DNA of 64,000 nucleotides, from contig CP145412.1 in assembly GCA_036867785.1 (NCBI GenBank), positions 1,116,001-1,180,000 on the forward strand, read 5' to 3'. A program made the translations under genes and the position numbers. The notes below the pieces were generated by a model. It saw only the letters and a program-made list of their open reading frames with translations, did no database searches and was not told the origin of the DNA. Origin of the DNA: Plasmodiophora brassicae. Its lineage: Eukaryota. Of this stretch, positions 12,386 through 63,789 are shown in pieces; position 1 is the stretch's first letter; each line of letters begins with the position of its first letter.

Positions 12386-14008
12386 ATGTCGAGCATCATC
12401 ACGTTCGCTCTCATCACCGCCTTCTCGTTGCTCGTGTCGGCCCAAGGTTCTGCTTGACTGTCATCGGTGATCAGCCACCTGACCATGTGTCATGCTGCAG
12501 GGCAAGGGCAGCCCGGAGCACCATGCAATCAATCTCCAGGAACGCTGTCGTGTGGCACGAACGCAGGACAGGGTGCCGTGCTGCAATGCGTCAATGGGCA
12601 GTACGTTCTGGTCCAGACCTGTAACATTGGTGCCAACACGGCTTGCGGTCTCATGAACGGCATTCCCTTCTGCCTGACACCGGCGGAGGCGACTGCTCAA
12701 ACGGCGCCAGCCACGATCGCGACCACGAAGCCCCCGGGTACAGAGCTGGAGTGTCGCAGGCAGAGTTGTGCTGTCTAAGACAACGGTGAATGTCCAGTGC
12801 AAACCTTCCAGGTCGGCCAGGCCTGCAACTTCCCGGTCGGAACGTTCGGCTGTGGACCTGCGAACGCGCAAGGCCAAGACGGGATCCTGGTCTGCATTCA
12901 GGGCGCATGGGTCCTTGCCGACCACTGCGACGATGAGGAGAACGTTCGCTGCACCATTGGTAACGCTGGCAACGTGAACTTCCCCATCTGCCTGCCTCGG
13001 ACGCCACCCGCTCAGGCGGCGGTGTCCGTTCCAGCCAGCCAGGCCCCTCCCGTCACTGGTGGGTCCACCCTCTAGTAGTAGGGGACGCAACATTCCCAGC
13101 TGACAGCCTGGGCTGCCTTTGTGCAGGTCAAGTTTTCCAGGCTGGGCAGGGGTGCAACCTGCCGATCGGGACGTTCGGTTGCGGACAGACTACTGCCCAA
13201 GGGCAGGACGAGATTCTGGTCTGCATCCAGAACGCGTGGGTCGTTGCCGACCACTGCGACGACGAGGAGAACGTTCGCTGCACCATTGGTAACGCTGGCA
13301 ACGTCAACTTCCCCGTCTGCTTGCCTCGAGCGACAGCAGCTCAGCCGGCGGCGGCTACCGTTAGCACCAATGTCGCAGCGAGCCAGGCCCCTCCCGTCAC
13401 CGGTGACCCTCGCACCTTGCACAAGGGCACATCCCCGAATAACGATGACACTATATCTCTGTAGGTCAAGTGTTCCAGGTCGGCCAGGCCTGCAACTTGC
13501 CGATTGGGACGTTCGGTTGCGGACAGACTACTGCCCAAGGGCAGGACGAGATTCTGGTCTGCATCCAGGGCGCGTGGGTCCTTGCCGACCACTGCGACGA
13601 CGAGGAAAACGTCCGCTGCACCATCGGTAACGCTGGCAACGTCAACTTCCCCGTCTGCTTGCCTCGAGCGACAGCAGCTCAGCCGGGTGCTACCGGTAGC
13701 ACCAATGTCACAGCGAGCCAGGCCCCTCCCGTCACCGGTGACTTCCGCATCTTGCGCACGTGGGCACATCCCTGTATAACGATGACACTATCTCTGTAGG
13801 TCAAGTGTTCCAGGTCGGGCAGGCCTGCAACTTGCCGATCGGGACGTTCGGTTGCGGACAGACTACTGCCCAAGGGCAGGACGAGATTCTGGTCTGCATC
13901 CAGGGCGCGTGGGTCCTTGCCGACCACTGCGACGACGAGGAGAACGTCCGCTGCACGATCGGCAACGCTGGCAACGTCAACTTCCCCGTCTGCAAGCCTC
14001 GCCAGTAG
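12386..14008 (+). CDS. Secreted cysteine-rich protein with five six-Cys modules, candidate effector or wall protein
   Basis: Signal peptide MSSIITFALITAFSLLVSAQG; one divergent module (12.5-12.7 kb), then four near-identical CNxPxGTFGCG..LVCIQxAWVxADHCDDEENVRCTIGNAGNVNFPxC modules on separate exons. Confidence 0.8.
12798..14000 (+). repeat. Tandem exon+intron repeat, four units of about 330 bp
   Basis: Near-identical DNA units start near 12798, 13127, 13465 and 13800. The last two introns are also similar (aacgatgacacta..tctctgtag). Confidence 0.92.
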
Positions 14009-14472
14009 AGTCATCAACGCTCTGCCTCACCGTTCTGCAACCGACCACCGTTGTGAAACCGACCACCTTTCTGAAACCGGCCAACTTCATCAATAAAACA
14101 ACTCGTTTGCTGTGGTAGAGGCTCGGGATTAAAGCGGTTTGGATGAACGATCTGTTACGTTACGTACGTCGTGTCTCGATGCTGCCCGAGCAGTCTGGGC
14201 AGATCGTGGAATGGGCTGAACGCGAAGCCGTTATCGTCAGGCTTGGCGCGCCCCCGGCACCAGTCGTCCTACAGTAGATTCGTGCCATTCGGAACACCAG
14301 GCGGGTTACAAAGCGGGGTCACCCATTGCAGACAGTTACAGGAACCGTAATTGGAGAACAATTGGAGTTGGCAGGATACTACTGAGTATCCTCCGGTACG
14401 GGACAGGCAGTAATTCCAACAATGTATTTTGCCTGGACATTCCAGGTACGATACAGTGCGAAGCTCGCCACG

Positions 14473-17136
14473 TCAGGCGGTAGATCCAGTCGTGCTGGCG
14501 GCGCCCCGAATGGCGCTGCTGAAATTGCCCTGCGCCCCTGTTCGCATCTGAGTCGAGGCGGGCTTATGGTCGCCAAGGACGCTCGGCGGGCGGGTCTGCT
14601 GGTTGTTCGTCGACCCATCCATCGCCTTGATCTCCGCGATCGTGTACGCCGACATGATGAGGAACTTCGGGATGAACAGGCTGCCAACACACGCCAGAAC
14701 GAGCAGGAACGTCGCCGTCGTGCGAATCAGAAGCGACACGGTCGGGTTCCCCACCATAGCCACCAAGGTTGGCACGGCCAGCGCTGACACGATCGCCACC
14801 GTATACATGCAGATCGCTATTGCAAGGCGTTCAGTGATCCAGGACGTCACCAGGCGCACCACACGATTACCAATGTGTTTGCTCTCGTTGAACAGTAGTA
14901 GCGGGACCTGCAGGACAGCACCGTTCAGTGACCAATCAACGTACAGTCGCAACGGTAATGGTTACGTTGCGGGTGCGATAGGCGAGCATGGTTCCCCATG
15001 CGATCACGGCGGCCATGACGAGGCCAATGGCGTACAGACCAGCAGGGTGGTAATCGCATTGGTCGACGTACGGGAGGAGCGTAAACGTCAGCGATGCCGA
15101 TGGGCACTGCTGCGGAGCCTGGAACACTTTCCTGGCGGGTGACGTGGTCCCCTGGATGACCATCCAGACGGCCAGCAACGCTACGTTGAACAGCATGAAA
15201 GCAGCAAGTCGAACAGCAAGGTCCACATTAGAGATGATGTGCTTGCTGGTGGAGGTCATGCTGAACACCTGCGTCACGCGCCACGTCTTGAAGAACAACG
15301 CGCCGAACATCAACGAGAAGCCCAGGGTGGTCAGCCAGGCCGTCGACCAGCACGACGACGACGATACGGGAAGCGTCCCCGACGTGATATTCGACAGAAG
15401 CAGCATGATGGCCCCCAGACAGATGGTGACGCAGAACAAGGGCGATGCCGATGCGATCACTGGATGATGCGTGTACGCAGCAATTACACCCAGGACGATC
15501 ACCACAGCGACGGTACCGATTGCGACCAGGACGATATTGATGACCCAAGCCCATTGCTTGGCCTCGACCGCCTGGATGCACTGCTGTGGTAGGGCCTGGA
15601 TCCCGTGTAACATCTGAACCAGCTGGCACTCCATCGTCAGCAGCGCGCCCTCCGGTGAAATCTTCTTCAGGAGAGCGGCGTTGACGGCGTTGTAGACGAC
15701 CGCGGACGAGTCCTGGTAGTTGGGGGAGGCGGCGGTCGACCATCGCGGCACCGTGTAGTTCTCGGGGACGGCCACGTCGCAGACCTGCAGCCCGCTGTCC
15801 GAGGCGTTACAGAGCCCGCGCCCGAAATAGATGTCCTTGTTGACCGGCATGTAGTTGATGCGGTGGAAGTTCCACTTCTGTGTCTGCTCCGAGACGATGA
15901 CGGAAACGGCGTGGGCCGCGGCACGCTGGTTCGTGGCCGACTTCGACACGGCGACCATGAACCCGCCGAGCGTCCCGTGCGATGTGGTTCCAGGGCCTGC
16001 ACAGAAACGCGATGTCGGTGGCAGCGTCACGCTATAGACGTTCGACGACGTGACCGTCGTTAGGGAGTAGTGTGATGCCGGTGAGGGAGCCGAGCGCACC
16101 GGTCGCCCTGATATTGGAGATCGCATACGGCCAGTTCCGCATGAACGCTGCGTTCATGCCCAGGTACATATTAAGCGTTTCCTACAATAACGGGTGCGAT
16201 TAGACCATGACAAAGGGCATCTCAGGGGGCGGTCATACCGTCTCCGTATAGCCGGTGACAGCAGGGCCGGATATCGTATCCGTCCAGTGGACCATGCGGC
16301 GGAGTGCCTTCAGGGCCGCTGGGTTGTTGACGGTCACTCGTTTATCGGATTCGACAACGTTGCCGCCACCATGCGACGTCACCAACTAGCACAATAGCAT
16401 AAACGGAACGGCAGGCGAATGCCGAACAAGGACCAGTACCTCGAGTACATCGCAAGTCAGACCTTCGTAGGCCCGCCCTTGCCAGACGTACCCGACGAAC
16501 GCGTTATTGCTCGGACGTTCGCCATCCTTGCAAATTGTCAGGCTGGGCGTGTATGGCAACCGCGTCGGTCCCGACCTGGATCGTTTGCGCCATGTGCTCG
16601 AGCTCGGCCCAGGTGGTGGGCGGATGATCGAAATTGTACTTGGCGAGCAGGTCCTTTCGGTAGTAAAGGAAGCCGCTGTCGATGAACCAAGGGGCGGCAA
16701 CCTGGACGCCGTTCACGGTTGCAAATTGCCGTTCATTGTCGACCGGTGCCTCCAGCTGTGCCTCGGTCAACAGGGTTGACATATCGGATAGGTGCTCGGC
16801 CAAGTCGCCCGGCCAGATCACGTCGATGAAGACAACTGCCATCTGCGGGTCCTTCGCCTGGAAATGCTGCGTCAGGTACAGGAACTGGTCGTTGACGTCG
16901 CTGTTCAACTCATCCATCAGAATGGCAACCGGGCGGTCACGCGGACGCTTCACTGACTGCGGCAGCGTCGTGGTGGTGAGTATCGGGTCTGCCGAATCGT
17001 CCATGATGTTGATGGTGACCCGGTCAGAGTTCCCTCCTCCGTAACATGTCGTACACGACGACAAATTCGACAGCTTGAGCGCACCGGCTAGGTACCCGCC
17101 GGACAGCAACGCCAGCCACAGCCGGTGCATAGCCAT
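14473..17136 (-). CDS. Class-C-like 7TM receptor with N-terminal ABC-type sugar-binding (SBP family 1) domain
   Basis: Signal-like start MAMHRLWLALLSGG. SBP motifs DVIWPG, PWFIDSGFLYYRKDLL, GYVWQGRAYEGLTCD, FMRNWPYA, TLGG. Class C TM motifs VIASASPLF, GFSLMFGALFFKTWRV, LAYRTRNV, FNESKHI, LFIPKF. Confidence 0.85.
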
Positions 17137-17491
17137 CGTTTCCACCGCTCTCGGAACCGCCCACTGTCCACGCTCGACAGCCAGCCAGTCCCAGGCCAGC
17201 TCACGACACGGGACATGCAGGCTGCCAGCCCCTGGCGGCTGGCACGCACCGTTCACCTCGTGGTGGCACGCTGTGACGACACACAATGGCCAATGGCCAA
17301 TGGGCCAATGCCGCATTCTGTGACTGTGAACGTCAGCTGGCGTATCATCTGACGGCCAATCCCATCCGCCAGCGGAAACGGCGCGCTGCCTGTCCATCAC
17401 GGATGATACCGTTAACCCGCGGCTACATCGAGTGAGGTCACAGCAACAACGCCTCCCCGTCGCCGTCGACCGCTCGCACGTCACAATGGCC

Positions 17492-18435: not shown

Positions 18436-18465
<30 letters not shown>
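18436..18465. repeat. (GT)n microsatellite, about 15 units
   Basis: Read directly from the sequence. Confidence 0.95.
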
Positions 18466-18466
<1 letters not shown>

Positions 18467-19508
18467 TGTGTAACGTGGCACCCCCGCTGTGGCGCGTGCC
18501 CTGGATAGTTTAGCCACTCGGACGCTAAGCGGTACGACCGGAATTCTCGGCCACATAACGATTCGGTGTTGCTGGGAAGGTATGGGCAACAACCAGGGCA
18601 GGTCGTGCGACGCCGTACCCACTGGGCGCCAGCAGAACGACCGGTCGACAACGAGGCAGCTGTCTCGGGTACGTCGTGGGCTGGCGCGGGGCCTACGCAG
18701 CCTGGGCGCATGGCTGTCACCCCCGGACGTCCTCGACGACCTGGCAACCTGCGACACAAGGTCCAGTCCCACACCTGAACTGGCAGCACCTTCTGGGGTG
18801 TCTCCACCAGCGCCACCACCCGGACCTCCGGGCGCCCCAGGTTCGTCAACCAGAGGTACATTCCGCGATGCTGTTCTGAGTAGTGCAGGCGCCCCGTCAC
18901 CACCCGGAGGACCTGTCGCAATTCGATCGCCAGGCACGGCTCGTCCGGGCTGGAAACCGAACCCGGAACGTCCCAGGAACTGATGGACTACCATTGTTCC
19001 TGGGACATTCCGGGTTCGGTTTCCAGCCCGGACGAGCAGTTCCTGGCGATCGAATTGCGACAGGTCCTCCGGGTGGTGACGGGGCGCCTGCACTACTCAG
19101 AACAGCATCGCGGAATGTACCTCTGGTTGACGAACCTGGGGCGCCCGGAGGTCCGGGTGGTGGCGCTGGTGGAGACACTCCAGAAGGTGCTGCCAGTTCA
19201 GGTGCGGGACTGGACCTTGTGTCGCAGGTTGCCAGGTAGTCGAGGACATCCGGGGGTGACAGGCACGCGCCCAGGCTGCGCAGGCCCCGCGCCAGCGCAC
19301 GACGTAGACGAGGCAGCTGCCTCGTTGACTGCGCGTTCTGCTGGCGCCCAGAGGGCACGGCGTCGCACGACCTGCCCTGGTTGCTGCTCATACCTTCCCA
19401 GCAACACCGAATCGTTATGTGGCCGCGAATCCCGGTCGTACCGCTTAGCGTCCGAGTGGCTAACTATCTGCATAGGGCACGCGCCAATGCGGGGGTGCGC
19501 AGACACAC
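18460..19508. repeat. Long fold-back inverted repeat (arms about 520 bp, about 15 bp spacer at 18981-18995) of dispersed repeat R
   Basis: ...cccggaacgtcccaggaac | tgatggactaccatt | gttcctgggacattccggg...; mirror ORFs on both strands; a third copy lies at 33855-34380. Confidence 0.93.
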
Positions 19509-32650: not shown

Positions 32651-33750
32651 TTAGGTGTTCGTCCTGCAGTTGTTGTACGAGTCGGGTGCGACGTTGATCA
32701 TTCGTGCTGGGCGGCGTCCCGCTCGTCCTTGTCGTGCGCGGACCTCTACCTCAGGTTCGCCACCGTGTCGGCCTTGAAGCAGCCCAGCGCGTGGGTCGAC
32801 ATCAGGTCGGCGATGGACAGGAAGTCGTCGCGGTGGGCGCGAACGACCAGGTTCCCGCTGGTGCGGAGCTCGACGAACCATTTCCACCGGACCGAGTCGT
32901 ACTTGTCCATGACCTCGACCATATCCAGCGTCAGCTTGGACCCGCCCGGCTCGACCTTCATGTCCTTGGCCGGCGATATGTCAAAGATGAAGCCGAAGTC
33001 AATGTGGACGACGTGGCCGTCGTCGTCGAGCAGGATGTGGCCGCTGTGCTGGTCCTTGACCTGCAGCAGGTAGCTGCAGAAGGCATGGGCGCCGGCCATG
33101 GACAGGACAAAGTGTCGCTGCGCCTCCTGCTTGACGGCGGCGCCCTCGGCCCGGCCAAACTTGGACAGGAAGTAGCCGCGCGGGCTCAGGCCGTTGCTCT
33201 TGCTGAGGTCGTCGCGCGACGCCGACCTGCGAACGCACTCGATCACGCCGCCCAGGGCGCGGGTCGCCCGCGTCCGGTTCGGCATCGCCAGCGGGTACGG
33301 GTAGACGAACAGGGGCAGGTCGACGGACGCGAACACGCCCTGGGCCAGGCGGATGAACTGTAGCGCCAGGCAGTCCTGGCGGCAGCCGTCGCCGGCCGGG
33401 AAGATCACCTGCTTCGTGGAGACGACGGCGGCGGCGGCAGCGGCGGGGGCCCGGGAGGAGCGCACCAGGAACTCGTCGAGGAACGGGACACGCGCCGCCG
33501 ACTGCAGCGGCTTGGGCGTCGGCACCAGGATGTCGACGACCTGCGCCGTGTGATCCGTCGGCAGGTACAGCGGGTGCCGGGAAGCCGGCAAGTGCCGCAC
33601 GATCACGTTGTCGATGGCTTTCGTCAGCTCGACCATTTGACGACTCGTCGCCAGCTTGAAGCCGTGCGCCTGCCCCTTCGGTGCCAGGTCCAGCACGGCA
33701 GGGCCCACTGCGATGGTCGCCACAACGTTCGACTGCATCCAGATCGTGCG
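32651..33750 (-). pseudogene. Phosphatidylinositol 4-kinase (alpha/Stt4-type) catalytic-domain fragment, degenerate
   Basis: PLQSAARVPF, IFPAGDGCRQD (expected FKVGDDCRQD), GVIECV, KDQHSGHIL (expected KDRHNGNI), HIDFGFIFDISP; stop and frameshift in the C-terminal part. Confidence 0.82.
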
Positions 33751-33854
33751 CGTCATCCGCTGATTCGCAAGCGTTGCCCTGGAAGAATACACACGTCATT
33801 AGAGGGATGTGGCCAGTGTTCCCGTGCGCACCGTACCAGTGGTAGGCCATCACA

Positions 33855-41353: not shown

Positions 41354-42276
41354 TCATCGCCGTAACCTGTCGGCGTCACAGGATCCCGGTTGCGCCTCAC
41401 TGCACCACTTCTTCACTTCGCCTCCATCCATCGTCATCGGCACGCCCGACTTCCGTTTCGCCATGCGGGGTTGCATCGACATGATCTGCTCGCGAAGGTC
41501 GTCATCCGCCAGCGTCTTATCGGCCTCGACGGCGGCTGCATAGTCGGCCAGGGCCTGATGCTGGTCGTTGATGGCGACAAAGACATGCGATCGCGCCAGA
41601 AGCGCTCGTGCGTCGCCAGGATTCAAGGCAACGACGGACGACAGGTCGTTGACCGCCCGTGTCAGGTCGTGCCGCGATGGCGATGCTCTGGACATCCAGC
41701 AGCTGGCCCGGCCGCGTAACGCGTCGACGCATTGCGGATCGAGCTTCAACGCAAACGAAAAGTCGGAGATGGCCTGCGTTAGCTGGCCCAGCGACGAGAG
41801 CAGGCGACCGCGCGTCAGGAACACGTCCACAAACTGCGGGTTCTCGGCCAGAGCGCTCGTGTAATCCGCAATCGCACGATTGGGCAGACCCTTGGCTTCG
41901 TACAGTCGGCCACGATGCCACAGGATCTCTGGACGCTTCCCCATCGACGGCGCCGCTGGCAATGCGGACGCGTGATCCAGGTCGGCAAGCGCGTCATCGA
42001 GGTCCCCGAGACCAATTAGGGCGATCGCCCGGCCAATCAGGCCGTCGATATGAGCGAACTGCAGCGACGACACGGTTACGATATGGGGCAGGGCGGAAGT
42101 GGCTGACCCAGGCGTACCTGGAGCTCTGCGACGTCCTGGACGCGGGCGATCAGCGACGTGAAGGACGCGGACGCGGACGCGAAATCGGAGGCATGCAGGG
42201 CGGAGCGGGCAGCGTTGAGCAGCGGATGCCACCCGTCCAGGCCGTCGACGACCATGGCATTGAACCCACCCCGCAT
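41354..42276 (-). CDS. Tetratricopeptide-repeat protein
   Basis: Repeated A..D...A...P / RG units such as RAIADYTSALAENP, QAISDFSFALKLDP and RAVNDLSSVVALNP. Confidence 0.8.
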
Positions 42277-42609
42277 GCCGCCCGCCGCCGCCACTTATAC
42301 GGCGGTGAACGAGACGCGCGCCGCCGCAATTCCCCTCGGCTTTGCGAGTGGCGACTCCAAATCTCGCCACGCGGACGACGGGGCTGCCCCACCCACCGCG
42401 GCATGTGGTGGGGTGTACGCAGAAGCCCGCTAAGGTCGTCAGGTGGTATCCTGATGACCACGCTTGGGTGCTCAGGTTGTTAGTCTCTCGGTGGCTCTTT
42501 TCTACGCTCGTCAGCGTTCGTCAGCAGCCAGGCGCAGGCGTTGGACCGACGTTGACCGAGGCGCGGATGCCGGAAGAGTGCAAGAAGTTTATTCCCGTAG
42601 ACCGAGAGA

Positions 42610-58278: not shown

Positions 58279-61098
58279 TCAGTCATGATGGGCTGGTATG
58301 TTGAGCGGAAGTAATGGTGCCAGCAGTGCCCTCCGTTGAAAACGGCACGTGCGCCGCATAGCGACAGTGATTAAGCAAGTCAGCGTTACTACAACAATGA
58401 CAACTGGGTACAGCAAGGTGGAGAACACCACGAATGGCTCGCCAGATGCGGACACGGAGAATCGCCAATCTCGCAATCGACGAATACGCAACCTTGCATG
58501 CGTTTCGGGAGACCCAGTCGGTGTCGGAACGGAACAGGATGGAGCACGCCCGTAGACACGCGAGTACAGGGCATACTCGTCAAATGAGTTTTCGAGTCGG
58601 ACCGGCGCCGGGTAAGCATCTGAATAATCATCGTCAAGCGCCGGGTGTAGAGCAGTACTTAACCGGTCAGGGATGATGTTAGAAGTGGCAGCTTCGAGCA
58701 TTAGAATGATAAGCCAATCGGCGCGAGTGGACAACACACTTTGGACATCGTCGATGCCGCTCGAGTCACCATACACAATGACATGACTGCTGTTCACCGA
58801 CAGCACCCCACCGATCATGGGCATACCAGAACGACCTTGCGTGGATTTCAATTCCTGAGCAGGGAGCAATCGTCCGCCAGACGGAAACCTACTCACAGTC
58901 GTTCCAGAGGGGTAGGCAACTGGGCGGCCACCGATGTGAAACCGCCCTTCGACGACATCATCAGAGAAGGAGATCCCAAATGGATCCAGCAAATCATTCA
59001 AGGCGGGAATATTTGAGCCTCCAGTAATGGGGCCCCACCAGTGTTGCGTATTCTGATCAAAGAAGCGCGCACGTTGCATCTCGCCATGGTTGAACCAGTC
59101 GCCAATAACAACCAGCGATAAACCACCGTTGACGACGGCGTCGTAGACTCTGACGATTTCTTCATGGAAGAATTCTTCCTCAGCATCAACAATCACCAAC
59201 GCGCCATATCGACTGGTGTCGACACAAGTCAGGTCGCGCATGGCGATGTCGACGAAGAATCCGGCCGCGCGAAGCTCTGAATAGAACCCACGAAAATTCG
59301 TGTGCAGATGGTCGCCATGCCAGTCGAGAGTGTCCGACTTCTCCTGCAGGTTGTCGCGAGGAGCAAACACGCGAGGGTACTGAAGGTTGTGGAACTGATC
59401 CCACAAGATCCGACGCCTTCTAGGTGGTCGCGGAATGACGGAAGCGCGGAACGGAATCTCGACATTACATGACCTATGGTCTGAATCAACATCGAAGTAG
59501 ATCGTCCCGGCGACATCGACCCGCTGCGACACGTCGCGAACAACAGTGATGAGGACAGCGAACCACCCGGTCCATGGCCAGATCACATCGCAATGGACGA
59601 ATGACAGGTCAAGAACTGGCAGTGAACCGTTCGTATAGACAAAGCGCGGCGCAACGATATAGCCGTCGACTGCCACGCTGCTGTGCACTGTGAAGTTGAA
59701 GACCACAGGTTCAGCGGCAGCGAACAGAGGCTGAGTGCAGAACGGCCAAAAGTACGGGCAGTCAGTAAGGTCAAGCCGGTTAGGCAAGACGCTAACGTGA
59801 GGAACCATGGACCCACCAGCGAGAAACGCAACGGCAGCGTCGCCATTCAAGCGCCCGGCACCCTGTTCGAACATGGTTGCATCCGGGACGATCTCAGCTG
59901 TCTGCACGAGGGCCTGCTTAATAGCACCAGGATTGCGAAGTGGAGAATCGGGCGCTAGAGCAGACAGCATTCTCGCCACGATTCCAGCAACGACAGGAGA
60001 CGCGACCGATGTGCCACTCAGTGTTTGGCAGGTGCCACTCCTGCCAGAACCGCGAAGGTTCTGCGCCAGGGTCACGACGTCAGGTTTGACGCGACCGTAT
60101 CCGCCCTCGTGCAAATCCATGGTCGTCATGCCTCTTGAACTGAACGACGCGATCCTGCCCTCTGCGTCAAGCCCACCGACGCCGATAACGCAGGGCAGAT
60201 CCGCGGGACTGAGCAGTGTGCCCCACAGAGGTCCGTCATTACCAACGGCGCTGACAACGACAATGCCCGCGGCACACATTTCCAGGATTTTGTCAATGAA
60301 CGGCGTGTCGACATGGTCAGGTCCTCCGACCGACAGGTTGAGCACATCGATACCCGCCCAAATGGCGTAATTGAACGCGTCCAGGAACCATGACGTATAC
60401 GATGTTTGGTCGGCCGTGAATACCCGCATGATGTGCATAAGCGCGTTAGGGGCCTGGCCTTCGCATCCAGGATGTCGCCCGGCAACCGCAGATGCGACAA
60501 ACGTCCCGTGTCCAAGGACATCGTCTGGGTTGCCGTCGCTTGTGAAATCCAGGCGTTCGACGATATTAGCCAGGCCGCCCCCGCCTGCGTTCAGTCCCGA
60601 ATCCAGAACAGCGACACGAACGTTGTCGCCAAGAGCGCCGGCAGCCGGTTTCCGCTCAGGAATATCCGACTGCTTGGCAGGCGGGCTATCGCCTGTCGAC
60701 AGTAATGTTCGAAAGGTCCGCTGCGGATTCACTGACCGAAACAAGCCCGAACGGCGCGCTATTGCCAGGACGGCGCTGTCAGGGGATTCGACAGCAATAA
60801 CGGCGACGTCGGTTGAGGGTAGCGCTCCCATTGAAGACGAATTCACGAATCTCCAGCGATGACCCTCACAACCGACCGCCTGCCGTACCGCGCGTTCGAC
60901 GTCCCCAACCGGTACGCGGTCACGCAGCACCAGTACAACCGGGAAACTGAGCGCCGGACATTCGTCAGCGCTGGTGCCGGAGCACGCCGGCGCACACGTC
61001 CCCAACAATGGCGCCGCCGCCGTCGCCGCCGCCGCGCCACTTGACAGAACAGCGACGACGACGACGACGACGACGACAACGACGACGGCTGCGGTCAT
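58279..61098 (-). CDS. MBTPS1: Site-1 protease (SKI-1/S1P, subtilisin S8), intronless
   Basis: RTLL prodomain site, VAVLDSG, LGHGTFVA, QTSYTSWFLDAFNYA, SGTSVASPVVAG, FEQGAG, CPYFWPFCTQP, RILWDQFHN..YP, DWHGDHLHTNF, C-terminal TM helix. Confidence 0.95.
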   Translation of the reverse strand: MTAAVVVVVVVVVVVAVLSSGAAAATAAAPLLGTCAPACSGTSADECPALSFPVVLVLRDRVPVGDVERAVRQAVGCEGHRWRFVNSSSMGALPSTDVAVIAVESPDSAVLAIARRSGLFRSVNPQRTFRTLLSTGDSPPAKQSDIPERKPAAGALGDNVRVAVLDSGLNAGGGGLANIVERLDFTSDGNPDDVLGHGTFVASAVAGRHPGCEGQAPNALMHIMRVFTADQTSYTSWFLDAFNYAIWAGIDVLNLSVGGPDHVDTPFIDKILEMCAAGIVVVSAVGNDGPLWGTLLSPADLPCVIGVGGLDAEGRIASFSSRGMTTMDLHEGGYGRVKPDVVTLAQNLRGSGRSGTCQTLSGTSVASPVVAGIVARMLSALAPDSPLRNPGAIKQALVQTAEIVPDATMFEQGAGRLNGDAAVAFLAGGSMVPHVSVLPNRLDLTDCPYFWPFCTQPLFAAAEPVVFNFTVHSSVAVDGYIVAPRFVYTNGSLPVLDLSFVHCDVIWPWTGWFAVLITVVRDVSQRVDVAGTIYFDVDSDHRSCNVEIPFRASVIPRPPRRRRILWDQFHNLQYPRVFAPRDNLQEKSDTLDWHGDHLHTNFRGFYSELRAAGFFVDIAMRDLTCVDTSRYGALVIVDAEEEFFHEEIVRVYDAVVNGGLSLVVIGDWFNHGEMQRARFFDQNTQHWWGPITGGSNIPALNDLLDPFGISFSDDVVEGRFHIGGRPVAYPSGTTVSRFPSGGRLLPAQELKSTQGRSGMPMIGGVLSVNSSHVIVYGDSSGIDDVQSVLSTRADWLIILMLEAATSNIIPDRLSTALHPALDDDYSDAYPAPVRLENSFDEYALYSRVYGRAPSCSVPTPTGSPETHARLRIRRLRDWRFSVSASGEPFVVFSTLLYPVVIVVVTLTCLITVAMRRTCRFQRRALLAPLLPLNIPAHHD

Positions 61099-61311
61099 TC
61101 CATAGCAACGTCGCTGGGAAATGAGGGCGTCGTTTTGGGGCGAGAACGTGGAGAGAGGTTGTCGCCTGTTTTTTGTGTCGTGCGCACTGCGTGACGGAGT
61201 TGTCGCTGCATCGCGGATTCGCGCCCCTCCCACACTGTGAACCCGACGGGTCGTAGTCGACGACAGGTAGTGTTGCCACTGCGGAGGTTGGGGGGTGGTC
61301 GTCGCCCGGCG

Positions 61312-63789
61312 ATGGCGGATGAGGTCCAGGGTCGTGCCGCGAAGAAGAGGCGCCCGCCACGCCGAGTACCGTCGACGCTGGAGCGCATGGTCAAGAAGCT
61401 GAACGATATGCGCGTGGCGTCGATGGACGAGCGCGTCGTCATCGCGAATACGATCTGCAATGTGGAAACGGCGGATGCGATGGCGAAGGTCGTTTCGATG
61501 GACGGGCAGTCGCAGCTGGCGAACTGGCTGACGCAAGCGATTGACGAGGGGCATGTCGGTTTGCAGTGTGCACTGCTCCGCCTGTCGATGCGATTACCGC
61601 TGGATATGACCACGACGACACCACTGCATGCTGTTGTCAACGACCTTCTACAGGATAACCCCAGTGTCGACCCGGACGTTCGCGATCTGGCCAAGAGCGT
61701 CTGGGCGCAATGGTCGACGGAACGGCCTGCGCCGAGCCACTTCACGATCACAGTGGGAACCGAAGAGCGCCGGCAAGTGATGTTCGAGCGGGATCCAGAG
61801 TTCCACAGCGAATCTGAAGATGGTAGCAACGTCGGCGAGGAGCAGCCGCCGAACAAGCGGCAACGGCCCGCGAAGAGCCTTCGTTGGGCACCAGAGCACA
61901 AGCTCGAGGCGGTTCGCGTTTTCCATCGTCCTGTAGACGAGCAGCATGGCGGTGGTGCGAAGAAACGAGCTCCACTTGCTGCGCCACCGGTTGCTGTGCG
62001 ACCCCAGCTGGAATCGTGGACGACACCCCCGAAGGTCCACGTGCCTCCAGAGTGCGTCCGTGTCGACCCAGTCGGCAGCGGGGAACGCGCCATGCAGGCC
62101 GCTCGTATCTCGTCGCTCATGGATGTCGTCTATTTCAAACGAGACCAGATCCCACCCAACCCTTCTTTGCCCGATGGCGTCAATACCGGTGCCGACGTCG
62201 TTAATGTGTTTACCAAGGATCTGCTGGTACGCGAGCCGCCCAATCTATGGCCGGAATGGTCCCGTTCTGACCGTGCCTTGCAGATGCTGGAAGCACCCTC
62301 AGGTGGCATGATATCTGCCGTATCGTCAGACGCGCCGCTCGCCCCTCTGCAATCAGTACCAGAGCGGCCTACTGATAGCAATAATGCAGCCATGCTTGAA
62401 GAACTATTGGCAGCTGACCCGTCAATACTGTCGTCGTTGCTGCACGAAGCGGCGATGGTTGGCGTCGGCGGCGACGATCGACCACCGCCAGAGTACTTCA
62501 GCGGTATCCGTCCTCGATCGCCGCCACCGATGCGCCACATGTCACCGCCTCGTCGAGGTTCGGTCCTGAACCCGTTCGGTCTGCCGCTGCCACCATCGCC
62601 TCCTCGACACCTCCCTCCTGCTGACCACATGCCCGGGCCTCCCTATGGTCGTCGTTCTCCTAGTCCGCCGCCTCATCAACGGCCGCCGTCGCCGCCTAGG
62701 CGTCGAAGCCTGTGGGACCGCCGACCTGAACCTCCTGCACGCGGCGATTGGCCTCAACGGCGTCCTCCTCTCGGCCCCGGTGGTGACCGAAATCCCGAGT
62801 TAGACCCCAGGCGAGATTATCCGATGGGCGGGCCCGCTGAACGTCGTATGCCACCGCCTGAGCATTGGGGAGGGCCATATCCGCCTCCAAGAGAGCACCT
62901 CGGGGATTACCTTCGGCAGGGGTACCCGGCGCCAGGACCCATGCGCCCCGATGTGCCGCCCCAGTTCAGGATGCCGCCTGATGACCGACGCGACTTCAGA
63001 CGAGGTGGCCCGCCCCCTGGCCCGTATCCGCCACGAGACTTTCACCCTGATGATATGAGGCCACTACCAAGTGGGCCAAGAGACGCCTATCCAGGACCTC
63101 GCGACTATCCGCCGCTGCCGAGGGAGTTCCCTGCTGACGAACGTGCCATGTATCGAGGGTACCCTCCTCCAGACATGCCCTATGGTGGGCGTCCTCCCCC
63201 ACGAGGTGCCCCGGGTGACTATCCGCCCCATATGCGTCCAGGTATGAGAGACTTCCCGCCACCAGGGCCTCGTGACATGCCACCGCCGGATCGCGCTGGT
63301 CCACGAGATTTCCCGCCTCATGAACGGGGCATCCCGCGTGATCGATCCCCGCCGGGTCGCATGCATCCACATGATCGTCGCGGGTTCCCGCCCCACGATC
63401 GACCATTGCTTCCGTTGCACGATAGAGGAGGTCCCAGGATTCGCGATGAACGATTCGGCGCTCCTCCACCTGGTCCGCCTGGCGGTCGTCGCGATAGAGG
63501 CGGGTCTCGTGATCGTGGTGGTCCTCGAGACGCCAAGCCGAACGGCAGGGACGACTCTGTTCGCGGCGGCTCTCGAGAACGTGCTGGTAAGTGGGAAGGA
63601 CCAAGAGGGCGTGATCCGGATCAGGGCCGAAATCATCCTGAACCCAATCGGCGACCAGCTCGAAAGGGTTCTCGAGACCAAAGTCACGATCCTGCTAATC
63701 GTCCCCAGTCTCCGCCAGCCCCAAGCGATCCAAACCTCGACCAGTTCGGCCGCCTCAAGAAGAATGAAGAGCCCGCCGCAGAATCATAA
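61312..63789 (+). CDS. PNUTS/PPP1R10-like PP1 regulatory subunit, intronless
   Basis: TFIIS-N-like helical N-terminus (LANWL..LLRLSMRLP..LAKSVWAQW); KSLRWAPEHKLEAVRVF (RVxF-type plus phi-phi motif); GSGERAMQAAR..IPPNP; long Pro/Arg/Gly/Asp-rich tail. Confidence 0.72.
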   Translation: MADEVQGRAAKKRRPPRRVPSTLERMVKKLNDMRVASMDERVVIANTICNVETADAMAKVVSMDGQSQLANWLTQAIDEGHVGLQCALLRLSMRLPLDMTTTTPLHAVVNDLLQDNPSVDPDVRDLAKSVWAQWSTERPAPSHFTITVGTEERRQVMFERDPEFHSESEDGSNVGEEQPPNKRQRPAKSLRWAPEHKLEAVRVFHRPVDEQHGGGAKKRAPLAAPPVAVRPQLESWTTPPKVHVPPECVRVDPVGSGERAMQAARISSLMDVVYFKRDQIPPNPSLPDGVNTGADVVNVFTKDLLVREPPNLWPEWSRSDRALQMLEAPSGGMISAVSSDAPLAPLQSVPERPTDSNNAAMLEELLAADPSILSSLLHEAAMVGVGGDDRPPPEYFSGIRPRSPPPMRHMSPPRRGSVLNPFGLPLPPSPPRHLPPADHMPGPPYGRRSPSPPPHQRPPSPPRRRSLWDRRPEPPARGDWPQRRPPLGPGGDRNPELDPRRDYPMGGPAERRMPPPEHWGGPYPPPREHLGDYLRQGYPAPGPMRPDVPPQFRMPPDDRRDFRRGGPPPGPYPPRDFHPDDMRPLPSGPRDAYPGPRDYPPLPREFPADERAMYRGYPPPDMPYGGRPPPRGAPGDYPPHMRPGMRDFPPPGPRDMPPPDRAGPRDFPPHERGIPRDRSPPGRMHPHDRRGFPPHDRPLLPLHDRGGPRIRDERFGAPPPGPPGGRRDRGGSRDRGGPRDAKPNGRDDSVRGGSRERAGKWEGPRGRDPDQGRNHPEPNRRPARKGSRDQSHDPANRPQSPPAPSDPNLDQFGRLKKNEEPAAES

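What the first reader, a model, noticed from the sequence alone, without database searches (positions are those of the whole stretch)
14473..17136. Class-C-like GPCR whose ligand domain is a bacterial-type trehalose/maltose ABC-binding protein
Seen: the ectodomain carries DVIWPG, PWFIDSGFLYYRKDLL..PPTTWAEL, GYVWQGRAYEGLTCD, FMRNWPYA and TLGG, followed by a GABA-B-like 7TM. Known: canonical class C receptors use a type I periplasmic-binding (Venus flytrap) fold, while these motifs are typical of type II SBP family 1 trehalose/maltose-binding proteins (ThuE/MalE-like). Inferred: a sugar-sensing receptor built by domain fusion, possibly from a horizontally acquired domain, and a candidate host-sugar or trehalose sensor. 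I cannot tell whether this architecture has already been described.
Basis: partly seen in the sequence, partly recalled or inferred. Interest (0 to 1): 0.8.

Follow-up and report, generated by a model that had tools for sequence, protein, structure and literature searches.

The report
Sugar-binding-domain GPCR of the clubroot parasite
This is a real gene of the clubroot parasite Plasmodiophora brassicae that joins a bacterial-type trehalose/maltose-binding domain to a GABA-B-like seven-helix receptor, but the same fusion has already been published for this species and for zoosporic fungi.

Summary
A minus-strand gene (ATG 17136, stop 14475-14473; 8 exons, 7 GT..AG introns of 49-58 nt; 758 aa) encodes a signal peptide, a complete SBP_bac_1 domain, a roughly 27-residue linker and a 7tm_3 domain.

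The SBP domain is closest to the solved alpha-disaccharide binders 6J9W, 1EU8 and 6DTQ. The 7TM domain is closest to GABA-B2. One exon (15996-14966) carries both the C-terminal part of the SBP fold and TM1-5, so the fusion does not depend on any splice. All seven introns appear as joints in RNA-like contigs.

The C-terminal 349 residues are 100% identical to P. brassicae PBRA_003000. That public model starts at an internal Met and lacks the ectodomain.

The architecture is not new:
- Rolfe et al. 2016 described four SBP_bac_1-7tm3 fusions in P. brassicae, calling them transporters unique to this species.
- Krishnan et al. 2012 found SBP_bac_1 on class C receptors of Allomyces.
- Seppälä et al. 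2016 found type II sugar-SBP domains on about half of the gut-fungal class C GPCRs.

My searches add relatives in chytrids and blastoclads, conserved sugar-pocket residues, and a plasmodiophorid branch that is not nested among the fungal sequences. Sugar binding and signalling remain untested. Verdict: already known, low interest.

The parts
14473..17136 (-). Whole coding region: 758 codons plus stop, in 8 exons
   Evidence: Sequence read. The spliced model is open and 758 aa. It is colinear with P. brassicae paralogue P0001 (45% identity over about 714-733 aa).
16958..17136 (-). Exon 1: start codon, signal-peptide-like N-terminus (MAMHRLWLALLSGGYLAGAL...) and first beta-strand region
   Evidence: Translation. 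The downstream intron 16957-16901 is seen as a joint in 4 of 4 runs. The signal peptide is inferred from hydrophobicity only.
16576..16900 (-). Exon 2: N-lobe of the SBP domain, holding DVIWPG, PWFIDSGFLYYRKDLL and PPTTWAEL
   Evidence: Matches 6J9W-family residues 45-151 at E 9e-25. SBP_bac_1 at E 5.2e-8. Motif coordinates.
16440..16526 (-). Exon 3: GYVWQGRAYEGLTCD segment of the SBP
   Evidence: Flanking introns 16575-16527 (4 of 4 runs) and 16439-16386 (3 of 4 runs). Motif coordinates.
16239..16385 (-). Exon 4: SBP segment (LVTSHGGGNVVESD...)
   Evidence: Flanking introns 16439-16386 and 16238-16182, each in 3 of 4 runs. Colinear with P0001.
16055..16181 (-). Exon 5: SBP segment with FMRNWPYA (pocket Trp)
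   Evidence: Motif coordinates. The downstream intron 16054-15997 is seen in only 1 of 4 runs (X16). The junction is also supported by the gap-free alignment to P0001.
14966..15996 (-). Exon 6: one exon holding the C-terminal part of the SBP fold (TLGG, VPRW), the linker and TM1-TM5
   Evidence: Its first 145 aa match 1EU8 residues 283-396 at E 1.7e-5. 7tm_3 at E 6.1e-27. Contigs of 4 of 4 runs cover most or all of it without a break (table 8).
14871..14907 (-). Exon 7: VPLLLFNESKHI, the class C ICL3/TM6 motif
   Evidence: Flanking introns 14965-14908 and 14870-14817, each in 4 of 4 runs. The same splicing is used in public model P0171.
14473..14816 (-). Exon 8: TM6, TM7 (with IPKF), C-terminal tail and stop codon
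   Evidence: 7tm_3 profile positions 196-251 matched weakly (E 0.0044). 100% identical to P0171.
15635..17019 (-). SBP_bac_1 ectodomain (about residues 40-409, introns included in the span)
   Evidence: Paralogue P0001 residues 45-406 align with 6J9W residues 37-396 of 408 at E 1e-64. The window's own exons are matched.
15554..15634 (-). Linker of about 27 residues with two Cys (MECQL...QQC...). The public gene model starts here, at an internal Met (15634).
   Evidence: P0171 residue 1 maps to 15634. The SBP alignment ends just before this point.
14653..15553 (-). Seven-transmembrane domain (residues about 437-699)
   Evidence: Hydropathy finds six helices. TM3 is placed by alignment to GABA-B2. 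Pfam 7tm_3 hit.
15275..15361 (-). TM3, with the conserved Cys (SSSCW) and KTWRV
   Evidence: Aligned to GABA-B2 TM3 (c...fgamfaktwrv). Coordinates.

Best explanation
The gene encodes a class C (GABA-B-like) G-protein-coupled receptor of Plasmodiophora brassicae. In place of the usual type I Venus flytrap, its extracellular ligand domain is a type II ABC-importer solute-binding domain of the trehalose/maltose (alpha-glucoside disaccharide) subfamily.

The most likely working is as follows. The signal peptide places the SBP domain outside the cell. A disaccharide such as trehalose, sucrose or maltose binds in the cleft between the two lobes and closes them. That change passes through a short Cys-containing stalk (no cysteine-rich domain, as in GABA-B) to the 7TM bundle, which activates a heterotrimeric G protein. 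The parasite would thereby read host or self sugar status.

Shown here:
- One gene with both domains, partly in a single exon.
- The identity of both domains.
- Retention of the sugar-pocket residues and of class C 7TM motifs.

Inferred:
- That a sugar binds, and which sugar.
- G-protein coupling.
- Whether activation runs through a dimer rearrangement as in class C receptors, or through the closed SBP docking on the 7TM face as free MBP does on the chemoreceptor Tar.

This gene is one of four paralogues in the species and belongs to a family shared with zoosporic fungi.
For: Gene structure:
- All 7 introns are GT..AG (plus for 16957-16901). Each appears as a joint in contigs of runs guessed to be RNA: 4/4, 4/4, 3/4, 3/4, 1/4, 4/4 and 4/4 runs, in 5'-to-3' order.
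- Exon 15996-14966 alone holds SBP residues equivalent to 1EU8 283-396 and a 7tm_3 hit of 95.3 bits.
- The model is colinear with P. brassicae paralogues P0001 (45%), P0170 (44%) and P0153 (37%). P0001 and P0153 were scanned here and have both Pfam domains; for P0170 the search's precomputed Pfam listing shows both.
- Residues 410-758 are 100% identical to PBRA_003000.
- Rolfe et al. report from their own transcriptome that these fusions are single coding regions.

Ectodomain:
- P0001 aligns with 6J9W at E 1e-64, 1EU8 at 8e-53 and 6DTQ at 3e-51. PMC12096829 says all three bind alpha-linked disaccharides.
- The pocket residues named there for Athe_2310 are D69, F119, D121, E225, W243, G278, G279, W280 and R351. 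A D69F/G278F/G279F mutant loses binding.
- By motif and spacing, these map to D86, F132, D134, E245, W263, G299, G300, F301 and R373 of the window protein (alignments).
- Across 25 fused GPCRs the corresponding columns are D in 24/25, D in 23/25, W in 25/25, G in 25/25, G in 24/25 and R in 25/25.
- The protein atlas gave 29 of 30 best feature hits as bacterial SBP_bac_1/8 clusters; the first is named as a trehalose/maltose SBP family.

7TM domain:
- The best solved matches are GABA-B2, then GABA-B1, GPR158/179 and mGluR2.
- The TM3 Cys, KTWRV, the ECL2 Cys aligned with that of GABA-B2, RTRN...FNESK and PK in TM7 are all present.

The bacterial homologue keeps its transporter partners. In Labrys okinawensis locus L053 the SBP sits beside two BPD_transp_1 permeases and an ABC_tran/OB_MalK ATPase. 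None of the Pfam hits among the 15 long window ORFs scanned was a permease or ATPase.
Against: - No binding or signalling data exist, here or in the papers I could search.
- One pocket Trp (W280 of Athe_2310; W in 21/25 fused relatives) is Phe in this protein. The equivalents of R12 and N316 could not be mapped, so the ligand may differ from trehalose or maltose.
- The mapping of Athe_2310 numbers to the motifs is my inference from spacing, not a structural superposition.
- The intron 16054-15997 junction was seen in only 1 of 4 runs. A different joint, 16014-16070, which is GT..AG on the opposite strand, was seen in 3 of 4 runs.
- The runs are only guessed to be RNA. Contigs carry no strand, and no listed contig spans the whole gene.
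- The presence of G proteins in this genome could not be checked, because no genome is held.
- No 3D model could be made.
- Rolfe et al. read these proteins as transporters.
Confidence: 0.65

Rival explanations
1. It is a new kind of eukaryotic sugar transporter. The SBP domain captures trehalose, maltose or oligosaccharide and the seven helices carry it across the membrane. This is the reading of Rolfe et al. 2016.
For: [quoted passage not shown]
- The nearest relatives of the ectodomain are SBPs of true ABC importers.
- P. brassicae lacks an extracellular invertase and must take up sugars directly, according to the same paper.
Against: - The membrane part is a 7tm_3 receptor domain (95.3 bits against a cut-off of 33.5). 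Its closest solved relatives are GABA-B, GPR158/179 and mGlu receptors.
- Receptor-type motifs are kept (TM3 KTWRV, FNESK, PK in TM7).
- I know of no 7tm_3 protein that transports a solute (recalled, not tested).
- In bacteria the SBP hands its ligand to BPD_transp_1 permeases and an ATPase, and neither is part of this protein.
- Krishnan 2012 and Seppälä 2016 class the same architecture as class C GPCRs.
Confidence: 0.07
2. It is a class C receptor, but the SBP-derived pocket has been re-tuned to a ligand other than an alpha-glucoside disaccharide. Candidates include another plant sugar, a sugar phosphate or a glycoside.
For: - W to F at the TLGG(W) position.
- Two subsite-1 residues of the bacterial pocket (R12, N316) could not be mapped.
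- The protein is only 36-42% identical to any of the 79 bacterial loci compared.
- A related solved protein in the hit list binds sulfoquinovosyl glycerol (7NBZ, E 1.6e-32), so the wider subfamily is not restricted to glucosides.
- Four diverged paralogues (37-45% identity to this one) suggest different specificities.
Against: - Eight of the nine mapped pocket positions keep the bacterial residue. Six of these positions were counted, and they are invariant or nearly so in 25 fused relatives.
- The three best solved matches all bind alpha-linked disaccharides.
Confidence: 0.2
3. The SBP half and the 7TM half are separate genes, as implied by the public model PBRA_003000, which contains only the 7TM half.
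For: - The public model starts at an internal Met at 15634 and has only PF00003.
- No listed contig spans the whole gene.
Against: - The frame is open from 15996 through 15634 into TM1-5 within one exon. Upstream of the public start, that stretch encodes the last third of the SBP fold.
- Contigs of 4 of 4 runs run through 15634 without a break (table 8).
- Three paralogues are annotated as full fusions of 744-751 aa.
- A 7TM half starting at 15634 would lack a signal peptide and an ectodomain.
- Rolfe et al. state that the e3 annotation missed or split these genes and that their transcriptome shows single coding regions.
Confidence: 0.03

Closest known systems
P. brassicae SBP_bac_1-7tm3 fusion proteins of Rolfe et al. 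2016 (BMC Genomics 17:272; PMC4815078)
   Same: Same species and same architecture. They report four SBP_bac_1 members predicted to handle trehalose, maltose or oligosaccharide, and they note that the e3 annotation missed or split them. I also count four paralogues: this gene, P0001, P0170 and P0153.
   Different: They call the proteins transporters and say no other eukaryote has them. My searches find the same fusion in chytrids and blastoclads, and the membrane domain is a receptor domain. I did not open their figure or supplements, so I could not match this gene to one of their four identifiers.
Glutamate-family (class C) GPCRs of Allomyces macrogynus with an SBP_bac_1 N-terminus (Krishnan et al. 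2012; PMC3251606)
   Same: SBP_bac_1 fused to 7tm_3 with no NCD3G domain. They list 8 such sequences and read them as receptors.
   Different: A different supergroup (Fungi versus Rhizaria). About 25-31% identity to the plasmodiophorid proteins.
Class C GPCRs of anaerobic gut fungi with type II sugar-SBP domains (Seppälä et al. 2016; PMC5168858)
   Same: About half of roughly 100 class C GPCRs carry an N-terminal type II SBP domain resembling prokaryotic sugar-uptake SBPs, among them trehalose/maltose/sucrose binders. They discuss horizontal transfer.
   Different: These come from Neocallimastigomycota transcriptomes. I did not compare their sequences here.
GABA-B receptor (GB1/GB2), the closest solved 7TM
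   Same: Best solved match of the 7TM (E 1.5e-18 for P0001, 1.1e-11 for the window TM1-5). A short stalk with no cysteine-rich domain. The TM3 Cys, KTWRV and ECL2 Cys align.
   Different: GABA-B uses a type I ANF_receptor flytrap and works as an obligate heterodimer. Here the ectodomain is type II, and the oligomeric state is unknown.
Trehalose/maltose-binding proteins of ABC importers (1EU8 TMBP, 6J9W TtMBP, 6DTQ TmMBP3; ThuE type)
   Same: Full-length colinear homology of the ectodomain with the pocket residues retained.
   Different: Those are free or lipid-anchored proteins that deliver sugar to permeases plus an ATPase (example operon). Here the domain is covalently tethered to a GPCR and has an extra Cys pair (C342/C353 in P0001 numbering; 24/25 fused relatives each).
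Bacterial SBP-to-receptor signalling (maltose-binding protein with Tar, and others; Matilla et al. 2021, PMC8050422)
   Same: A type II sugar SBP serves as the sensing element of a signalling receptor. The same SBP subfamily is also fused to histidine kinase, Ser/Thr kinase, cyclase and other output domains.
   Different: There the SBP is usually a separate protein and the output is chemotaxis or two-component signalling, not a GPCR.

Membership tests
Class C GPCR (Pfam 7tm_3, PF00003) | 7tm_3 profile match above the curated cut-off | tested here: met
   Exon 15996-14966 scores 95.3 bits against a cut-off of 33.5 (E 6.1e-27). The last exons match profile positions 196-251 weakly (E 0.0044).
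Class C GPCR (Pfam 7tm_3, PF00003) | Seven transmembrane helices after a large extracellular N-terminal domain | tested here: met
   Six helices by hydropathy, plus TM3 by alignment to GABA-B2. About 436 residues precede TM1.
Class C GPCR (Pfam 7tm_3, PF00003) | Conserved TM3 Cys and ECL2 Cys, and TM3 Lys / ICL3-TM6 acidic motif (motif roles recalled) | tested here: met
   SSSCW, KTWRV and VDQC align with the GABA-B2 residues. RTRN..FNESK is present. The TM3 Cys is invariant in 25/25 fused relatives.
Class C GPCR (Pfam 7tm_3, PF00003) | Type I Venus flytrap (ANF_receptor) ligand domain | tested here: not met
   No ANF_receptor hit for the window exons or P0001. The ectodomain is SBP_bac_1/SBP_bac_8. 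This feature defines the canonical metazoan members, not the 7tm_3 family as such.
Class C GPCR (Pfam 7tm_3, PF00003) | Cysteine-rich NCD3G domain between flytrap and 7TM | tested here: not met
   No NCD3G hit. Its absence is shared with GABA-B and with all non-metazoan members, according to Krishnan 2012.
Class C GPCR (Pfam 7tm_3, PF00003) | G-protein coupling and dimeric operation | not testable with these tools
SBP_bac_1 trehalose/maltose-type (alpha-glucoside disaccharide) solute-binding proteins | SBP_bac_1 profile match above the cut-off and full-length colinear homology to solved members | tested here: met
   Exon 1 scores 33.7 bits against a cut-off of 26. Window exons match the 6J9W family at E 9e-25 and 1EU8 at E 1.7e-5. 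Paralogue P0001 residues 45-406 align with 6J9W residues 37-396 at E 1e-64.
SBP_bac_1 trehalose/maltose-type (alpha-glucoside disaccharide) solute-binding proteins | Sugar-pocket residues (D69, F119, D121, E225, W243, G278, G279, W280, R351, R12, N316 of Athe_2310) | tested here: inconclusive
   Eight positions are kept, one is W to F, and two (R12, N316) could not be mapped. The mapping rests on motif and spacing, not on structure.
SBP_bac_1 trehalose/maltose-type (alpha-glucoside disaccharide) solute-binding proteins | Works with ABC permeases and an ATPase | tested here: not met
   The domain is fused to a 7TM. None of the Pfam hits among the 15 long window ORFs scanned was a permease or ATPase. 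The bacterial homologue L053 has both.
SBP_bac_1 trehalose/maltose-type (alpha-glucoside disaccharide) solute-binding proteins | Binds trehalose, maltose or sucrose | not testable with these tools
   Needs a binding assay.
P. brassicae SBP-7tm3 fusion set of Rolfe et al. 2016 | P. brassicae gene with SBP_bac_1 fused to 7tm3, mis-annotated or split in the e3 annotation | tested here: met
   100% identity to PBRA_003000 over its 349 aa. That model holds only the 7TM half. Architecture. Description of the set.
P. brassicae SBP-7tm3 fusion set of Rolfe et al. 2016 | Identity with one of their four named genes | not tested
   Their figure and supplementary tables were not opened. The count of four paralogues agrees.

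The most novel reading that the evidence does not exclude
The four P. brassicae SBP-7tm_3 proteins are true G-protein-coupled sensors of alpha-glucoside disaccharides (trehalose, sucrose, maltose). Through them the intracellular parasite would tune its development to host carbohydrate status. They would belong to one old eukaryotic receptor lineage, shared with chytrids, blastoclads and unnamed metagenomic eukaryotes, that runs a class C 7TM from a type II binding domain. They would not be a species-specific bacterial acquisition or a transporter. Because a type II SBP is normally monomeric, activation may use a mechanism unlike the flytrap-dimer rearrangement of metazoan class C receptors.
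Probability: 0.4. Interest if true: 0.5.

Novelty: already known. Interest (0 to 1): 0.25.

Why it matters
The finding adds little as a discovery, because the fusion is already in print for this species and for zoosporic fungi.

It has some practical value:
- The public gene model (PBRA_003000) is truncated to the 7TM half.
- The published claim that the fusion is unique to P. brassicae does not hold.
- The published reading as a transporter is unlikely.

If the ectodomain does bind trehalose or sucrose, these receptors would be a concrete handle on how an unculturable crop parasite senses host sugar. They would also be a natural example of a class C GPCR driven by a type II binding domain. 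Neither point has been tested in anything I could find.

Tried and rejected
I therefore made no fold model and no fold search. The type II fold rests on sequence homology to solved structures.
- Complex prediction for an ectodomain homodimer was unavailable.
- No whole genome is held. G-protein genes and the genomic places of the paralogues were not examined.

Searches that gave little:
- The look-up of sequencing runs listed no RNA holder on record. The four runs I laid are only guessed to be RNA.
- NCBIfam gave nothing near its cut-offs.
- The word-indexed protein searches reached only close relatives: 1, 3 and 1 hits. The wider family came from the exhaustive search.
- The search for related loci rejected alignment A1 as too divergent. 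A closer alignment of free SBPs (A2) worked.
- Bi et al. 2019 on GPCR signalling in P. brassicae is not held; I know it only from citations.
- Schwelm et al. 2015 has no mention of G proteins, GPCRs or solute-binding proteins.
- Matilla et al. 2021 does not mention eukaryotes or GPCRs.
- Earlier findings of this scan held nothing.

Ideas rejected:
- My first model (777 aa) lacked the intron 16957-16901 and was replaced.
- Recent chytrid-to-plasmodiophorid transfer: the plasmodiophorid SBPs are not nested within the fungal group.
- Tandem duplication within the window: P0001 finds only this one locus.

Slips corrected: a term-syntax error, a wrong reading frame and a word-syntax error.
Full report
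**What is there**

The region 17136-14473 holds one minus-strand gene. Reading the sequence and splicing at GT..AG sites gave an open frame. Contigs of four public runs were laid on the region. These runs come from at most 4 samples and 3 studies, and their kind is only guessed to be RNA.

The contigs showed every intron I had predicted, plus one I had missed (16957-16901, 57 nt). The final model has 8 exons:
- 17136-16958
- 16900-16576
- 16526-16440
- 16385-16239
- 16181-16055
- 15996-14966
- 14907-14871
- 14816-14473

The seven introns are 49-58 nt long and the protein is 758 aa. In 5'-to-3' order, the introns were seen as joints in 4/4, 4/4, 3/4, 3/4, 1/4, 4/4 and 4/4 runs.

The weakest junction is 16054-15997, seen in X16 only. 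Its other support is the gap-free alignment to a paralogue across that point. No listed contig spans the whole gene, and contigs carry no strand information.

**Domains**

- Exon 1 matches SBP_bac_1 (E 5.2e-8, above the cut-off). Exon 15996-14966 matches 7tm_3 (E 6.1e-27).
- The window's own exons match solved structures directly. Exon piece 16899-16576 aligns with residues 45-151 of the 6J9W family (E 9e-25). The first 145 residues of exon 15996-14966 align with residues 283-396 of the 409-residue trehalose/maltose-binding protein 1EU8 (E 1.7e-5). The TM1-5 part aligns with GABA-B2 (E 1.1e-11).
- One exon therefore encodes both the end of the SBP fold and five transmembrane helices. The fusion does not rest on any splice prediction.
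- No ANF_receptor or NCD3G domain is found.
- The N-terminus looks like a signal peptide (inferred from hydrophobicity).

**Organism and public annotation**

A search with exon 15996-14966 returned a 349-aa protein named PBRA_003000 of Plasmodiophora brassicae, with PF00003 only. It is 100% identical, without gaps, to residues 410-758 of my model and starts at an internal Met at 15634. The window is therefore P. brassicae DNA, and the public model is truncated to the receptor half. It uses the same last two introns as my model.

Three annotated P. brassicae paralogues are full fusions:
- P0001: 744 aa, 45% identical to this protein.
- P0170: 751 aa, 44% identical.
- P0153: 749 aa, 37% identical.

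**Prior descriptions**

- Rolfe et al. 2016 (section 13 read in full) describe "novel putative transporters" of P. brassicae that fuse a 7tm3 domain to prokaryotic substrate-binding domains. Four have SBP_bac_1 and are predicted to handle trehalose, maltose or oligosaccharide; four have PBP_like_2. [quoted passage not shown] They also state that no other eukaryote has such fusions.
- Krishnan et al. 2012 (passages) had already listed SBP_bac_1 on 8 Glutamate-family GPCRs of Allomyces macrogynus.
- Seppälä et al. 2016 (passages) report that about half of roughly 100 class C GPCRs of anaerobic gut fungi carry a type II SBP domain resembling sugar-uptake SBPs. They set out the type I versus type II contrast and suggest horizontal transfer.

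**Family range**

An exhaustive search with P0001 found 5894 proteins at E <= 1e-3, and the best 150 cluster representatives were listed. Twenty of these 150 align across both domains in one stretch, and about five more reach into the first helices.

I looked up the names of 21 fused representatives:
- One cluster is P. brassicae.
- Thirteen are chytrids: Fimicolochytrium, Chytriomyces, Lobulomyces/Clydaea, Irineochytrium, Phlyctochytrium, Entophlyctis, Spizellomyces.
- Five are blastoclads: Paraphysoderma, Allomyces arbusculus, and Blastocladiella emersonii three times.
- Two are unnamed metagenome proteins.

The assignment of genera to phyla is from memory. The same SBP subfamily is also fused to other output domains: histidine kinase, Ser/Thr kinase, adenylate/guanylate cyclase, BTAD-AAA, caspase, LRR and fn3.

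Free homologues are common in bacteria. Of 606 pattern matches in GTDB genomes, 600 were confirmed. The 79 distinct loci kept come from MAGs and isolates labelled as Chloroflexota/Anaerolineae, Trueperaceae/Thermaceae, Halanaerobiales, Thermotogota, Acidimicrobiia and other groups, plus proteobacterial genera such as Labrys, Burkholderia and Halomonas (phylum groupings partly recalled). The window's SBP domain is 36-42% identical to all 79 of them, and no single lineage stands out. In Labrys okinawensis the homologue sits in a LacI / SBP / two permeases / MalK-type ATPase cluster.

**Trees**

*SBP domain, FastTree.* The tree had 134 rows. I kept only rows covering at least 290 of 371 query residues (143 of 166) and dropped 9 near-duplicates or fragments. 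All 28 GPCR rows fell in one 33-row group (support 89), together with five non-GPCR rows: two kinase fusions, one cyclase fusion and two others.

*SBP domain, IQ-TREE quick.* This run had 58 rows: all 25 non-redundant GPCR rows, 9 neighbours, and every fourth of the rest. It gave the same picture:
- A 31-row group with SH-aLRT 93.
- The three plasmodiophorid rows together (98).
- Those three joined with two metagenomic GPCRs and two other rows (96).
- That group apart from a fungal group (91).

*7TM domain.* This tree had 21 rows; 4 were left out for short matches. The plasmodiophorid sequences again form one group (99), apart from the fungal ones.

The trees are unrooted and support is moderate. 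They fit one old fusion shared by these lineages. They do not fit a recent transfer from chytrids or a private bacterial acquisition by P. brassicae.

**Ligand pocket**

The three best solved matches of the ectodomain are 6J9W (Thermus), 1EU8 (Thermococcus litoralis) and 6DTQ (Thermotoga). All three bind alpha-linked disaccharides, according to PMC12096829.

For the relative Athe_2310 that paper names these pocket residues: R12, N316, D121 and F119 in subsite 1; D69, E225, W243, R351 and W280 in subsite 2; and G278 and G279. It shows that a D69F/G278F/G279F mutant no longer binds.

By motif and spacing, these correspond in the window protein to:
- D86 in DVIW
- F132 and D134 in WFID
- E245, which lies 18 residues before W263
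- W263 in RNW
- G299 and G300 in TLGG, followed by F301
- R373 in VPRW

These positions come and the alignments. In an alignment of 25 fused GPCRs the corresponding columns are D 24/25, D 23/25, W 25/25, G 25/25, G 24/25 and R 25/25. The Trp after TLGG is W in 21/25 and is F here. R12 and N316 could not be mapped.

The pocket therefore looks functional and under constraint, but the exact sugar cannot be named.

**Receptor features**

The TM3 Cys and KTWRV, and the ECL2 Cys, align with GABA-B2. RTRN...FNESK at the TM5-TM6 loop and PK in TM7 are present. The functional meaning of these motifs is recalled, not tested here. The linker between the end of the SBP homology and TM1 is about 27 residues with two Cys. 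There is no cysteine-rich domain, which resembles the GABA-B stalk.

**Mechanism and rivals**

I favour a sugar-sensing GPCR (0.65). The rivals:
- The transporter reading (0.07) conflicts with the identity of the membrane domain.
- The two-gene reading (0.03) conflicts with the single exon and the contigs.
- A receptor with a different ligand (0.2) cannot be excluded.

How lobe closure of a normally monomeric type II SBP would drive a class C 7TM is open. A dimer rearrangement, or docking of the closed domain on the 7TM face as free MBP does on Tar, are both conceivable. The tools to examine this were not available.

**Literature gaps**

Full-text searches for the architecture and for functional work returned only the three descriptive papers above. 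I found no binding or signalling experiment. Bi et al. 2019 is not held. I did not open the supplements or the figure of Rolfe et al.

**Verdict**

What remains of value is the corrected gene model, the wider distribution of the family, and a still-untested sugar-sensor hypothesis.

Noticed in passing
window 14740-17027, + strand: Five joints in the laid contigs skip stretches that are GT..AG on the plus strand, opposite to the gene: 14741-14812 (72 nt, X15 only), 16014-16070 (57 nt, 3 of 4 runs), 16164-16225 (62 nt, 4 of 4 runs), 16738-16791 (54 nt, X18 only) and 16973-17027 (55 nt, X16 only). Boundaries were checked. The sizes match this organism's introns, which suggests a spliced antisense RNA over the receptor gene, perhaps read-through from the convergent plus-strand neighbour. 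One contig (X18 record 14) carries both sense joints and the 16014-16070 joint, as an unstranded assembly could produce.
   Followed up: partly
window 12806-14001: A tandem repeat of 335 nt, 3.6 copies, 84% matches. On the plus strand the units encode a repeated Cys-rich peptide (about 6 Cys per unit) that shifts frame between copies. Since 335 is not a multiple of 3, each unit may be an exon plus a short intron. There is no Pfam hit. It could be a secreted Cys-rich repeat protein just downstream of, and convergent with, the receptor gene.
   Followed up: partly
window 15634 (public model PBRA_003000 / P0171): The public protein model for this locus begins at an internal Met and contains only the 7TM half (349 aa). 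The upstream 409 codons, including the whole SBP domain, are missing from it.
   Followed up: yes
SBP versus 7TM trees: Among the plasmodiophorid paralogues, the SBP domain of this gene groups with P0001 (99). Its 7TM domain groups with P0018 and P0153 (91 and 86). This is a weakly supported domain-level disagreement that could reflect exchange between paralogues or just noise. P0018 is a 282-aa, 7TM-only sequence of unknown origin, 42% identical to this protein.
   Followed up: no
window 58282-61593 (-), 32749-33795 (-), 41357-42520 (-): Long ORFs with Peptidase_S8 plus MBTPS1 third and fourth domains (site-1-protease-like), PI3_PI4_kinase, and TPR repeats. This is ordinary eukaryotic gene content, and none of the hits was a transporter partner or G-protein component.
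   Followed up: partly
window 14028-14083 and 18436-18471: An 18-nt repeat of 3.1 copies, and a (GT)18 microsatellite.
   Followed up: no
window 17295 and 17336: In the stretch upstream of the ATG, one contig of X18 lacks one base at 17295 and one contig of X15 reads A for G at 17336. Contigs extend to at least 17395-17400, so the 5' untranslated region is at least about 260 nt. Strain differences fall outside the coding frame.
   Followed up: no
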